From: Escherichia coli
GTDB lineage: Bacteria; Pseudomonadota; Gammaproteobacteria; Enterobacterales; Enterobacteriaceae
Reading direction: 5' to 3' (one strand)
Length of the DNA: 64,000 bases
Assembly (NCBI RefSeq): GCF_048403405.1
Contig: NZ_CP183129.1
Position numbers and translations under genes: made by a program. Below are positions 36,146 to 37,362 of this stretch, in pieces. Below the pieces are notes generated by a model. That model was given only the letters and a program-made list of their open reading frames with translations. It did no database searches and was not told the origin of the DNA. Position 1 is the first letter of the stretch. Each line of letters opens with the position of its first letter.

Positions 36146-36361
36146 TTAGTTAGAGTTAATTAGCTTATCAACCTCTGTAAGAGATAAAGTTGCCATCTCT
36201 GCAACGTCTTCCCGAGACATTCCTTTACTCAGAAGACGCTGTGCCAGCCTTACCTTCCGGAGTCCCTCTTTATATCCCTTCTGAAATCCCTTCTGAAATC
36301 CCTTCTCTTCAAACCACTGCGCCAACGTCTGCCTGGTTTCTCTCCGTGTCTTTATTTCCAT
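36146..36361 (-). CDS. Stand-alone RpnS-like small protein (paralog of the RpnC C-terminal tail), 71 aa
   Basis: ORF MEIKTRRETRQTLAQWFEEKGFQKGFQKGYKEGLRKVRLAQRLLSKGMSREDVAEMATLSLTEVDKLINSN aligns with RpnC residues 241-310; ATG preceded by AAGGGA; lies in a tandemly duplicated DNA unit. Confidence 0.5.
   Translation of the reverse strand: MEIKTRRETRQTLAQWFEEKGFQKGFQKGYKEGLRKVRLAQRLLSKGMSREDVAEMATLSLTEVDKLINSN
36263..36310 (-). repeat. In-frame 12-bp tandem repeat (TCCCTTCTGAAA x2 plus degenerate flanks) encoding GFQK-GFQK in the small ORF
   Basis: Direct repeats read in sequence at 36275..36298. Confidence 0.7.
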
Positions 36362-36429
36362 AGGTTCCCTTAATTATCTGGTCAGTTAACAATAACAATT
36401 ATCTGGCTATAACTGATGATGCAGACAAC

Positions 36430-37362
36430 TTAGTTAATCAGCTTATCAATCTCGGCAAGGGGTAAATTTGCCATCTCTGCAACGTCTTCCCGAGACATTC
36501 CTTTACTCAGAAGACGCTGGGCGAATTCCTGACTTACTTCCTGTGTTACTTCCTGTATTACCTCTTGTCTTACCTCTTGTCTTACCTCCTGTCTTCCTTC
36601 CTGTCTTCCCCTCTCTTCAAACCACTGCGCCAGCGTCATCATAGACTTCCCTCCCGTTTCCCTGTCTCTCAGCACACCATAAAACAAATCCGCTTGTTCA
36701 GTATGACCGCGTTGCAGCATATAGTTTTGCATGGCAACTAACTGACTTCCGCTAGTGTACCCTTCGTCAATCAGCGTGACCAGTTGCTCCAGCAATAACA
36801 TTAAGTCGCGCTGGCGAATATGTTTTTGCAGTAGTTCGAGAATCGCAATCCGCCGATGTTGCATGATTTCGTCATCCGGTGTGATGGTGATATCCACCAG
36901 CGGGAAAGGGTTGTTGTAAACGCGTCGCGCCAGCTCCGGCGAGTAAAACATATCAAACCAGCACATTGAGAGCGGATAAGGTGTGGCCTCGCCCTGATAA
37001 AACAGAATCGGCACCACCAGCGGCAGCTTATCGTGATCCGCCTCCAGATGCCGGTGCATGGCAGCAATAGAATAACGCATCATGCGAAAGGCCATTTTCT
37101 TATCCGGCTTACTTTGGTGTTCAATCACCACATGCAAATAACCGGGATTACCCTGCATTTGTACGGAATAGAGTACGTCCGTGCTGTGCCCTTTCAGGCT
37201 TTCCTCAATAAAACTCCCCGACTCAAGATGCAGCGTGTCGAGGTCACACAGTTCGCGTAGCTCCGCTGGCAAATGGATATCCAGAAAGTCGCGAGCCGTT
37301 TCCGCATGCATTAAAAATTGTTTAAATACCGCATCATGCGGTGTGGTACTCGGTGCATCCAT
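36430..37362 (-). CDS. rpnC: Recombination-promoting nuclease RpnC (YadD; YhgA-like PD-(D/E)XK family)
   Basis: 310-aa ORF MDAPSTTPHDAVFKQFLMHAETARDFLDIHLP...; C-terminal tail with RQEV repeats; position between panC and panD. Confidence 0.8.
   Translation of the reverse strand: MDAPSTTPHDAVFKQFLMHAETARDFLDIHLPAELRELCDLDTLHLESGSFIEESLKGHSTDVLYSVQMQGNPGYLHVVIEHQSKPDKKMAFRMMRYSIAAMHRHLEADHDKLPLVVPILFYQGEATPYPLSMCWFDMFYSPELARRVYNNPFPLVDITITPDDEIMQHRRIAILELLQKHIRQRDLMLLLEQLVTLIDEGYTSGSQLVAMQNYMLQRGHTEQADLFYGVLRDRETGGKSMMTLAQWFEERGRQEGRQEVRQEVRQEVIQEVTQEVSQEFAQRLLSKGMSREDVAEMANLPLAEIDKLIN
36529..36609 (-). repeat. In-frame 12-bp tandem repeat array (about 6.5 copies, TTACCTCTTGTC-like) encoding RQEG/RQEV/IQEV/TQEV in the RpnC tail
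   Basis: Direct repeats read in sequence; correspond to protein residues 252-278. Confidence 0.75.

What the first reader, a model, noticed from the sequence alone, without database searches (positions are those of the whole stretch)
36263..36609. Different in-frame 12-bp tandem repeat arrays in the two Rpn tail copies (RQEV-type versus GFQK-type)
The RpnC tail carries about 6.5 copies of a 12-bp unit encoding RQEG/RQEV/IQEV/TQEV (36529..36609). The duplicated small ORF carries 2-3 copies of an unrelated 12-bp unit encoding GFQK (36263..36310) at the equivalent position. Both arrays keep the frame and sit between conserved flanks (TLAQWFEE... and ...QRLLSKGMSREDVAEMA). Perfect short tandem repeats are prone to slipped-strand expansion and contraction, so this looks like a built-in hypervariable cassette in the tail. 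RpnC here is 310 aa versus the 300 aa I recall for K-12, consistent with copy-number change.
Basis: partly seen in the sequence, partly recalled or inferred. Interest (0 to 1): 0.45.

Follow-up and report, generated by a model that had tools for sequence, protein, structure and literature searches.

The report
Variable four-residue repeats in RpnC antitoxin tails
The two 12-bp in-frame repeat arrays are real and vary in copy number between E. coli strains, but this is the hypervariable helix of the RpnC toxin/antitoxin tail and its downstream extra copy, both described in 2023, so it is a correct rediscovery and not a new finding.

Summary
Two period-12 arrays lie in frame on the minus strand. 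One is in the tail of rpnC (310 aa, 7 units RGRQ…EVSQ). The other is in a 71-aa ORF directly downstream (KGFQ KGFQ KGYK…) that duplicates the rpnC tail.

Zhong et al. 2023 (PNAS, PMC10400941) already describe all of this. The tail is the intragenic antitoxin RpnC_S of the nuclease toxin RpnC_L. The extra copy is rpnC_Ss, found in some E. coli strains. The dodecamer (four-residue) repeats vary between strains and set L/S pairing specificity.

My strain comparison agrees:
- RpnC carries 2 to 11 units, and its insert length is always 3 mod 4 residues.
- The Ss insert is 11–31 residues.
- 1555 of 5426 complete genomes carry the two-copy layout.
- Gains are exact copies of adjacent identical 12-mers.
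- The two arrays vary independently (rho 0.04 over 32 haplotypes).

The units form one connected family, and arrays and whole tails are exchanged between the two copies.

Verdict: already known, low interest.

The parts
36430..37362 (-). rpnC, full-length RpnC_L (310 aa): N-terminal PD-(D/E)XK-type nuclease domain plus C-terminal tail
   Evidence: ORF. Pfam PF04754 Transposase_31 (YhgA-like), residues 7-207, E 3e-87. NCBIfam TIGR01784 Rpn family, 280 bits against a cut-off of 52. Annotated rpnC in RefSeq genomes.
36430..36642 (-). Inferred intragenic ORF rpnC_S (70 aa), starting at the MM pair at residue 241 of RpnC; the antitoxin-type tail
   Evidence: ATGATG at 36642..36637 (- strand) is preceded by GGGAGG (36655..36650) with a 7-nt spacing. 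The start is inferred by analogy to the K-12 rpnC internal initiation site shown by ribosome profiling and tagging in PMC10400941. Expression was not tested for this allele.
36529..36612 (-). RQE-type dodecamer array, 7 in-frame units (RGRQ EGRQ EVRQ EVRQ EVIQ EVTQ EVSQ), inside predicted helix 1 of the tail
   Evidence: TRF 36526-36607, 6.8 copies. Unit parsing. The AlphaFold model places it in the long first helix, with low confidence over the repeats. Copy number is 2-11 across strains.
36362..36429 (.). Spacer between the rpnC stop and the start of the small ORF; a marker of the two-copy layout
   Evidence: A 121-bp query spanning it (36335-36455) matches 1555 of 5426 complete E. coli genomes at >=90% identity. 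It is absent in K-12.
36146..36361 (-). rpnC_Ss, a stand-alone second copy of the RpnC tail (71 aa), with its own ATG and an AAGGGA Shine-Dalgarno-like motif at 36371..36366
   Evidence: ORF. Aligns to the rpnC tail. NCBIfam TIGR01784 C-terminal positions 213-273, E 3e-10. Relatives carry precomputed PF27070 HTH_Rpn_C. The ORF is intact in all 20 evenly sampled two-copy genomes. Described as rpnCSs in PMC10400941 Fig. 2I.
36269..36306 (-). KGFQ-type dodecamer array (KGFQ KGFQ KGYK; two perfect units plus a diverged third), followed by degenerate units EGLR KVR
   Evidence: TRF 36274-36306, 2.8 copies, 100%. Unit parsing. It lies in predicted helix 7-45 of the 71-aa protein. Alleles with 0, 1, 2 or 3 KGFQ-type units exist.
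36398..36636 (-). Duplicated segment, copy 1 (rpnC tail from codon T243 to about 32 bp past the stop)
   Evidence: Pairwise alignments of the two copies.
36111..36328 (-). Duplicated segment, copy 2 (small ORF from codon T12 to about 35 bp past its stop)
   Evidence: Pairwise alignments of the two copies.

Best explanation
This is the E. coli rpnC locus between panC and panD, in its two-copy form. rpnC encodes a toxic PD-(D/E)XK DNA endonuclease (RpnC_L). From an internal start about 70 codons before the stop, it also encodes a small three-helix protein (RpnC_S) that is identical to the tail of RpnC_L and neutralises it. A partial tandem duplication placed a second free-standing tail gene (rpnC_Ss) immediately downstream. 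The first long helix of all these tails contains a run of 12-bp (four-residue) units. Unit number changes by gain or loss of adjacent identical units, through replication slippage or unequal exchange. Whole arrays or tails are also exchanged between the two copies by recombination. Each unit lengthens the dimerisation helix by about one turn, and published experiments show that only partners with matching repeat number pair. The array therefore acts as a length code for toxin/antitoxin specificity that diversifies between strains, probably under phage pressure. Shown here: the anatomy, the homology of the two copies, strain-level copy-number variation in both arrays, their independence, and the exact-unit nature of the gains. 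Taken from the literature: toxin and antitoxin activity, the specificity rule and phage defence. Inferred: the slippage mechanism and expression of S and Ss from this allele.
For: The arrays and their frames are confirmed. Domain assignments are PF04754 and TIGR01784, and precomputed PF27070 HTH_Rpn_C on relatives of the small ORF. Both tails are predicted as three helices with the repeats in helix 1. PMC10400941 describes RpnL/RpnS, rpnCSs downstream of rpnC in some E. coli, four-residue repeats starting 8-20 residues after the initiating Met, variation between strains, and the result that only RpnC_S with the same repeat number blocks RpnC_L. In my comparison, 20 evenly sampled two-copy genomes hold 14 distinct RpnC arrays and 12 distinct Ss arrays. 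RpnC insert lengths are 15-51 residues, all 3 mod 4. The window's exact Ss protein sits next to RpnC arrays of 6, 7, 8 and 9 units, and the extra units are exact copies of GAGGTAAGACAA or GAAGGAAGACAG. Among the 60 closest relatives over 4.85 kb, the matched span is either 4851 or 4863 bp, i.e. +12. Recombinant tails exist: L023 has the S array fused to an Ss C-terminus in a single-copy strain, P0018 is RpnC with the whole KGFQ tail, and P0064/P0065 are Ss with KGIE KGIQ QGRQ EERQ.
Against: No experiment on this allele shows that S or Ss is made, and the simple promoter scan found no sigma-70-like site on the minus strand. PADLOC 2023 has no model that hits either protein. The solved RpnA_S structure (7TH0) was not recovered by sequence or fold search from the RpnC tail, so the structural equivalence rests on moderate-confidence models (pLDDT about 50-58 over the repeats) and on the paper. 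Six genomes identical to the window over 4.85 kb all have the same length, so the arrays are not changing at phase-variation rates. Slippage versus recombination cannot be distinguished from these data.
Confidence: 0.9

Rival explanations
1. The arrays are neutral low-complexity expansions in a tolerant linker. They vary because 12-bp repeats slip, but copy number has no functional consequence.
For: All changes are automatically frame-preserving because the unit is 12 bp. AlphaFold confidence is low over the repeats.
Against: Published assays show that adding one KGIE unit to either RpnC_S or RpnC_LS alone abolishes neutralisation, and adding it to both restores it. The same four-residue periodicity is reported in Rpn tails of distant phyla. 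Units keep a constant residue pattern across 51 DNA variants.
Confidence: 0.05
2. The downstream 71-aa ORF is a decaying pseudogene fragment of a duplicated rpnC with no product of its own. Its different array simply reflects drift.
For: NCBI's PGAP pipeline annotates it as an 'incomplete; missing N-terminus' pseudogene in several genomes, or not at all. No minus-strand promoter was predicted. There is no expression evidence for RpnC_Ss.
Against: The ORF, with its own ATG and AAGGGA motif, is intact in all 20 evenly sampled two-copy genomes and is also present in Escherichia marmotae. Its array changes only in frame-preserving steps. The analogous RpnE_Ss (YpaA) protein is detected in K-12. 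It lies 68 nt downstream of rpnC with no predicted terminator between them, so co-transcription is plausible.
Confidence: 0.12
3. The length differences are assembly or sequencing artefacts at short repeats.
For: Short tandem repeats can be miscounted in draft assemblies.
Against: The arrays are only 33 and 82 bp, shorter than a read. Discrete alleles recur in many independent complete genomes: the window's small-ORF protein is indexed in 12019 blocks of assemblies, and the +12 variant appears in 37 of the 60 closest rows.
Confidence: 0.01

Closest known systems
RpnL/RpnS gene-within-gene toxin-antitoxin systems of E. coli, specifically RpnC_L/RpnC_S with the downstream RpnC_Ss (Zhong, Jiang, Hickman et al., PNAS 2023, PMC10400941)
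   Same: Same locus (between panC and panD), same domain layout, same internal-start geometry, the same downstream second tail copy found in a subset of strains, and the same four-residue (dodecamer) repeats in helix 1 that vary between strains.
   Different: Nothing categorical. K-12, the strain used for the experiments, has the single-copy form with KGIE/KGIQ-type units (4 units, 300 aa). This window has the two-copy form with 7 RQE-type units in RpnC and KGFQ-type units in Ss.
RpnE / YpaA (RpnE_Ss) of E. coli K-12
   Same: A stand-alone second copy of the tail directly downstream of its parent rpn gene. The protein has been detected experimentally.
   Different: An independent duplication. 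The paper's phylogeny places each Ss with its own parent S.
TAEL repeats in the HsdS subunit of the type I restriction enzymes EcoR124I/EcoR124II
   Same: In-frame four-residue repeats in a helical spacer whose copy number (2 versus 3) changes specificity. The Rpn authors cite this as the precedent.
   Different: There the repeat sets the spacing between two DNA half-sites. Here it sets protein-protein pairing between a toxin tail and its antitoxin. The protein families are unrelated.
Simple-sequence contingency loci (phase-variable genes of Haemophilus and Neisseria)
   Same: Slippage-prone short tandem repeats inside coding sequence that generate population diversity (my own knowledge).
   Different: Those repeats have units that are not multiples of three and switch genes on and off at high frequency. 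The Rpn unit is 12 bp, always in frame. Six genomes identical over 4.85 kb showed no length change, so there is no evidence for phase-variation rates.

Membership tests
Rpn (YhgA-like) recombination-promoting nuclease, RpnL | N-terminal PD-(D/E)XK nuclease domain of the YhgA/Transposase_31 type | tested here: met
   PF04754, residues 7-207, E 3.2e-87. TIGR01784, 280 bits against a cut-off of 52.1.
Rpn (YhgA-like) recombination-promoting nuclease, RpnL | Orthology to rpnC (yadD): position between panC and panD | tested here: met
   The window order is panB, panC, small ORF, rpnC, panD, yadE. The K-12 locus is annotated rpnC at the same place.
RpnL/RpnS intragenic toxin-antitoxin | Internal translation start with a ribosome-binding site about 60-70 codons before the stop, giving a small protein identical to the tail | tested here: inconclusive
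   The sequence shows GGGAGG, 7 nt, then ATGATG at residue 241 of 310. Translation from it is shown only for K-12 rpnC in the paper and cannot be tested with these tools.
RpnL/RpnS intragenic toxin-antitoxin | Tail folds as a three-helix bundle with a long first helix (HTH_Rpn_C) | tested here: met
   AlphaFold models give helices 7-45, 50-56 and 61-70 for Ss (pLDDT 70) and helices 4-14/20-46, 51-58 and 62-69 for S (pLDDT 67). Precomputed PF27070 HTH_Rpn_C hits on close Ss relatives are marked weak. Fold and sequence searches did not retrieve 7TH0.
RpnL/RpnS intragenic toxin-antitoxin | Four-residue repeats beginning 8-20 residues after the initiating Met, with copy number varying between strains of one species | tested here: met
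   Repeats begin at residue 11 of S and residue 20 of Ss. There are 2-11 units in RpnC and inserts of 11-31 residues in Ss across strains.
RpnL/RpnS intragenic toxin-antitoxin | RpnL is toxic (DNA endonuclease, SOS induction) and the cognate RpnS blocks it; contributes to phage defence | not testable with these tools
   Known only from experiments in PMC10400941. PADLOC 2023 has no matching model.
rpnC_Ss (stand-alone second tail copy) | Separate small gene directly downstream of rpnC on the same strand, homologous to the rpnC tail, present in only some E. coli | tested here: met
   71-aa ORF 68 nt downstream of rpnC. The flanks of the array are nearly identical to the rpnC tail. The spacer marker is present in 1555 of 5426 complete genomes.
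Phase-variable contingency locus | Repeat changes shift the frame or promoter spacing and switch expression at high frequency within clones | tested here: not met
   The unit is 12 bp and all observed alleles stay in frame. Six genomes 100% identical over 4851 bp show no length difference.

The most novel reading that the evidence does not exclude
In two-copy strains the downstream rpnC_Ss may not be a spare antitoxin for the resident RpnC_L. It could instead be an orthogonal tail cassette. Its helix insert differs in length from that of the resident S in 30 of 32 distinct haplotypes and varies independently of it (rho 0.04). Recombination between the two copies, seen as S-array/Ss-C-terminus fusions and whole-tail swaps, would then re-code toxin/antitoxin specificity in a single step. 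Alternatively, Ss could neutralise a different, incoming RpnL. Zhong et al. mention fusions and possible Rpn-driven recombination but do not test the pairing of S and Ss lengths.
Probability: 0.15. Interest if true: 0.45.

Novelty: already known. Interest (0 to 1): 0.15.

Why it matters
The repeat array is the specificity determinant of a widespread toxin/antitoxin phage-defence family in which the antitoxin is encoded inside the toxin gene. Its length variation shows how a toxin and its antitoxin can co-diversify, because both change in the same mutational event. All of this was established in 2023, so the present finding adds only strain-level numbers. It shows that the two arrays in two-copy strains vary independently and usually differ in length. 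It also shows that the unit types form one exchangeable family. The mechanism that expands and contracts the dodecamers, and the role of the stand-alone Ss copy, remain open.

Tried and rejected
1. I tested whether selection avoids equal S and Ss insert lengths in one genome. The evenly sampled 20 genomes showed no equal pair, but their length ranges did not overlap at all. Targeted look-ups then found equal pairs (31/31 in L058 and L060; 23/23 in L069), and the lengths are uncorrelated (Spearman 0.04, p 0.81). Strict avoidance is rejected; only 'usually different, independent' stands.

2. A sequence search of the PDB with RpnC or its tail did not find the RpnA_S entry 7TH0. It returned only weak Trp-repressor and designed-repeat hits.

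3. Foldseek of the Ss model against the PDB gave nothing below E 0.1, only generic HTH and resolvase E-helix resemblances.

4. PADLOC gave no hit for either protein.

5. The Pfam-A library of the tool gave no significant hit for the 71-aa ORF. The relevant family PF27070 appears only in precomputed annotations.

6. The consensus promoter/terminator scan found no minus-strand promoter for S or Ss, and only one implausible terminator-like site inside the Ss coding sequence.

7. I tested whether K-12's single copy is simply a fusion with the Ss copy. The K-12 tail carries KGIE/KGIQ units, an S-like C-terminal helix region and its own ending (…KVINLI), so its origin is not resolved. A clear fusion example is L023 instead.

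Full report
**Observation.** Tandem Repeats Finder reports two period-12 arrays in the region. One is at 36274-36306 (2.8 copies, 100% matches). The other is at 36526-36607 (6.8 copies, 87% matches). At score >=50 the whole 64-kb window holds only four distinct tandem arrays, and these are two of them.

Both arrays lie in frame on the minus strand:
- The longer array is in a 310-aa ORF (36430..37362). It encodes RGRQ EGRQ EVRQ EVRQ EVIQ EVTQ EVSQ, residues 251-278.
- The shorter array is in a 71-aa ORF (36146..36361). It encodes KGFQ KGFQ KGYK from residue 20.

The neighbouring genes are panB, panC, the small ORF, the 310-aa ORF, panD and yadE. This is the E. coli pan locus, and the 310-aa ORF is rpnC (yadD).

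**The two copies.** A DNA alignment shows that the small ORF duplicates the rpnC tail. Homology starts at the codon for T in TLAQWFEE and runs to about 35 bp past each stop codon. The duplicated segments are about 36398-36636 and 36111-36328. The sequence outside the arrays is almost identical, QRLLSKGMSREDVAEMA included. Upstream of that point the small ORF has its own start (MEIKTRRETRQ) with an AAGGGA motif. In rpnC, an ATGATG at residue 241 is preceded by GGGAGG at a 7-nt spacing.

**What it is.**
- The N-terminal 200 residues of the 310-aa protein match PF04754 (YhgA-like putative transposase) at E 3e-87. The whole protein matches the NCBIfam Rpn family model well above its cut-off.
- The 71-aa protein matches only the C-terminal 60 positions of that model.
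- Close relatives of the 71-aa protein carry a precomputed hit to PF27070, HTH_Rpn_C.
- AlphaFold models of both tails give one long helix followed by two short ones, with the repeats inside the long helix. Confidence over the repeats is only about 50-58.

**Literature.** Zhong et al., PNAS 2023 (PMC10400941) show the following:
- Every E. coli rpn gene has an internal promoter and an internal translation start, producing a small protein (RpnS) identical to the tail of the full-length nuclease (RpnL).
- RpnL is toxic and RpnS blocks it.
- The first helix of RpnS is a dimerisation interface that contains four-residue repeats starting 8-20 residues after the initiating Met.
- RpnC has the most repeats among E. 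coli strains.
- Only RpnC_S with the same repeat number as RpnC_L blocks it.
[quoted passage not shown] 2I). This copy can be lost by deletion or by fusion.

The authors call the units 'dodecamer repeats' and say that the mechanism of expansion and contraction needs study. A search for later papers found no follow-up on the repeats.

A 121-bp query across the spacer between the two copies matches 1555 of 5426 complete E. coli genomes. About 29% therefore have the two-copy layout. K-12 has one copy.

I fetched 20 two-copy genomes at even steps down that hit list, and six single-copy genomes and one further two-copy genome (L027) from the hit list. I also fetched 44 loci through exact look-ups of small-ORF variants. 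I measured the insert between WFEE and [S/N]KGMS. The results are:
- RpnC inserts are 15, 19, 23, 27, 31, 35, 39, 43 or 51 residues. All are 3 mod 4, which corresponds to 2 to 11 units. There are 29 distinct arrays.
- The small ORF's insert is 13-31 residues in these loci and 11-31 in the protein database. A subclass is shortened by two residues (…KVRLAQRLL instead of …KVRQEFAQRFL).
- In the 20 evenly sampled genomes there are 14 distinct RpnC arrays and 12 distinct small-ORF arrays.
- Small-ORF homologues with varying unit numbers also occur in Escherichia marmotae.

**Nature of the changes.** The window's exact 71-aa protein occurs next to RpnC arrays of 6, 7, 8 and 9 units. In the series WIN, L006, L005, the extra units are exact copies of the adjacent 12-mers GAGGTAAGACAA and GAAGGAAGACAG. 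This is the pattern expected from slippage or unequal exchange between identical neighbours.

Over a 4851-bp query, six genomes are 100% identical and have the same length. Among the 60 best rows, 23 span 4851 bp and 37 span 4863 bp, exactly one unit more. The arrays therefore change faster than the flanks accumulate about 1% divergence. There is no sign of the within-clone instability seen at phase-variable loci.

**Are the two unit types unrelated?** Within the window, KGFQ (AAGGGATTTCAG) and EGRQ (GAAGGAAGACAG) differ at 5 of 12 positions. That is not significant for composition-matched 12-mers (P about 0.07). Across strains the picture changes:
- 50 of 51 distinct in-register units form one network at <=2 mismatches. 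One path is KGFQ, KGIE, KGME, KGRQ, KVRQ, EVRQ.
- Small ORFs in L009, L010 and L012 carry EVRQ units. Those in P0064 and P0065 carry KGIE KGIQ QGRQ EERQ.
- K-12-type RpnC carries KGIE KGIQ QGRQ EVSQ.
- KGFQ is 2 mismatches from KGIQ.

The arrays share one collinear template, [KG(I/F)x]n [xG(R/L)Q] [xV(R/S)Q]m. The two window copies have expanded different parts of it. Recombinants show exchange between the copies:
- L023 is a single-copy strain whose RpnC has the 8-unit S array joined to the Ss-type C-terminus (…MATLSLTEVDKLINSN).
- P0018 is an RpnC with the whole KGFQ-type tail.
- L015 has an Ss with an S-type C-terminus.

**Relation between the two arrays in one genome.** Among 32 distinct (S, Ss) haplotypes the insert lengths are uncorrelated (Spearman 0.04, p 0.81). 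They are equal in only two haplotypes: 31/31 in L058 and L060, and 23/23 in the metagenomic contig L069. Given the published matching rule, most Ss copies would not be expected to pair with the resident RpnC_L. That expectation is an inference. Equal pairs do exist, so there is no strict avoidance.

**K-12 comparison.** K-12 rpnC is 300 aa. It has 4 units against 7 here (-12 aa) and a C-terminus two residues longer.

**Verdict.** The arrays are real, in frame, strain-variable and biologically meaningful. They are, however, the already described hypervariable helix of the RpnC_L/RpnC_S toxin-antitoxin pair and its known downstream extra copy, rpnC_Ss. What is added here is modest:
- numbers for copy-number ranges;
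- the frequency of the two-copy layout;
- the exact-unit nature of the gains;
- the independence of the two arrays;
- evidence that all unit types belong to one exchangeable family.

The mechanism of expansion and the function of Ss remain open questions, as the original authors also state.

Noticed in passing
L005 1-1027 (E. coli PKF11, NZ_CP156706.1 4279804-4280830): In this strain a site-specific integrase gene, not panC, lies next to the small rpnC_Ss ORF, and the flank no longer aligns to the window (410 mismatches). A mobile element seems to have inserted between panC and rpnC_Ss.
   Followed up: no
L032 488-1432 (GCA_023100405.1, plus 5 similar places); also L047 and L055: The long rpnC frame is interrupted (234-aa and 74-aa ORFs in L032; two fragments in L047 and L055), while the S part and the downstream Ss ORF stay intact. 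The toxin may be inactivated while the antitoxin-type genes are kept. In L055, panC is also split, so sequencing error is possible there.
   Followed up: partly
window 36146-36361 and the same ORF in RefSeq genomes: Annotation of the small ORF is inconsistent. It is called 'hypothetical protein', 'RpnC/YadD family protein' or 'transposase', marked as a pseudogene 'incomplete; missing N-terminus', or not annotated at all, although the ORF is intact in every sampled genome.
   Followed up: partly
window 54325-54598: A 96-bp tandem repeat (2.4-2.9 copies, 83-91% matches) lies inside a 617-aa plus-strand ORF (52936..54789). It is an in-frame 32-residue protein repeat. From its map position the ORF is probably yacH, but this was not checked.
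   Followed up: no
window 57556-58480: A 303-bp repeat (2.7 copies, 80%) and a 33-bp repeat lie inside a 630-aa minus-strand ORF (56609..58501). The length and position fit aceF with its three lipoyl domains and Ala/Pro-rich linkers; this rests on my own knowledge and was not tested.
   Followed up: no
window 36190-36363 (+) and 36468-36644 (+): Antisense ORFs of 57 and 58 aa run through both repeat arrays, giving proline/leucine-rich repeats. They are most likely by-products of the purine-rich coding strand (73% and 65% purine in the arrays).
   Followed up: no
window 36072-36100: A 9-bp perfect inverted repeat (AACTGGCGC … GCGCCAGTT) lies between the convergent panC and rpnC_Ss genes. It may be a bidirectional terminator, but the simple scan did not flag it because no T-run follows.
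   Followed up: no
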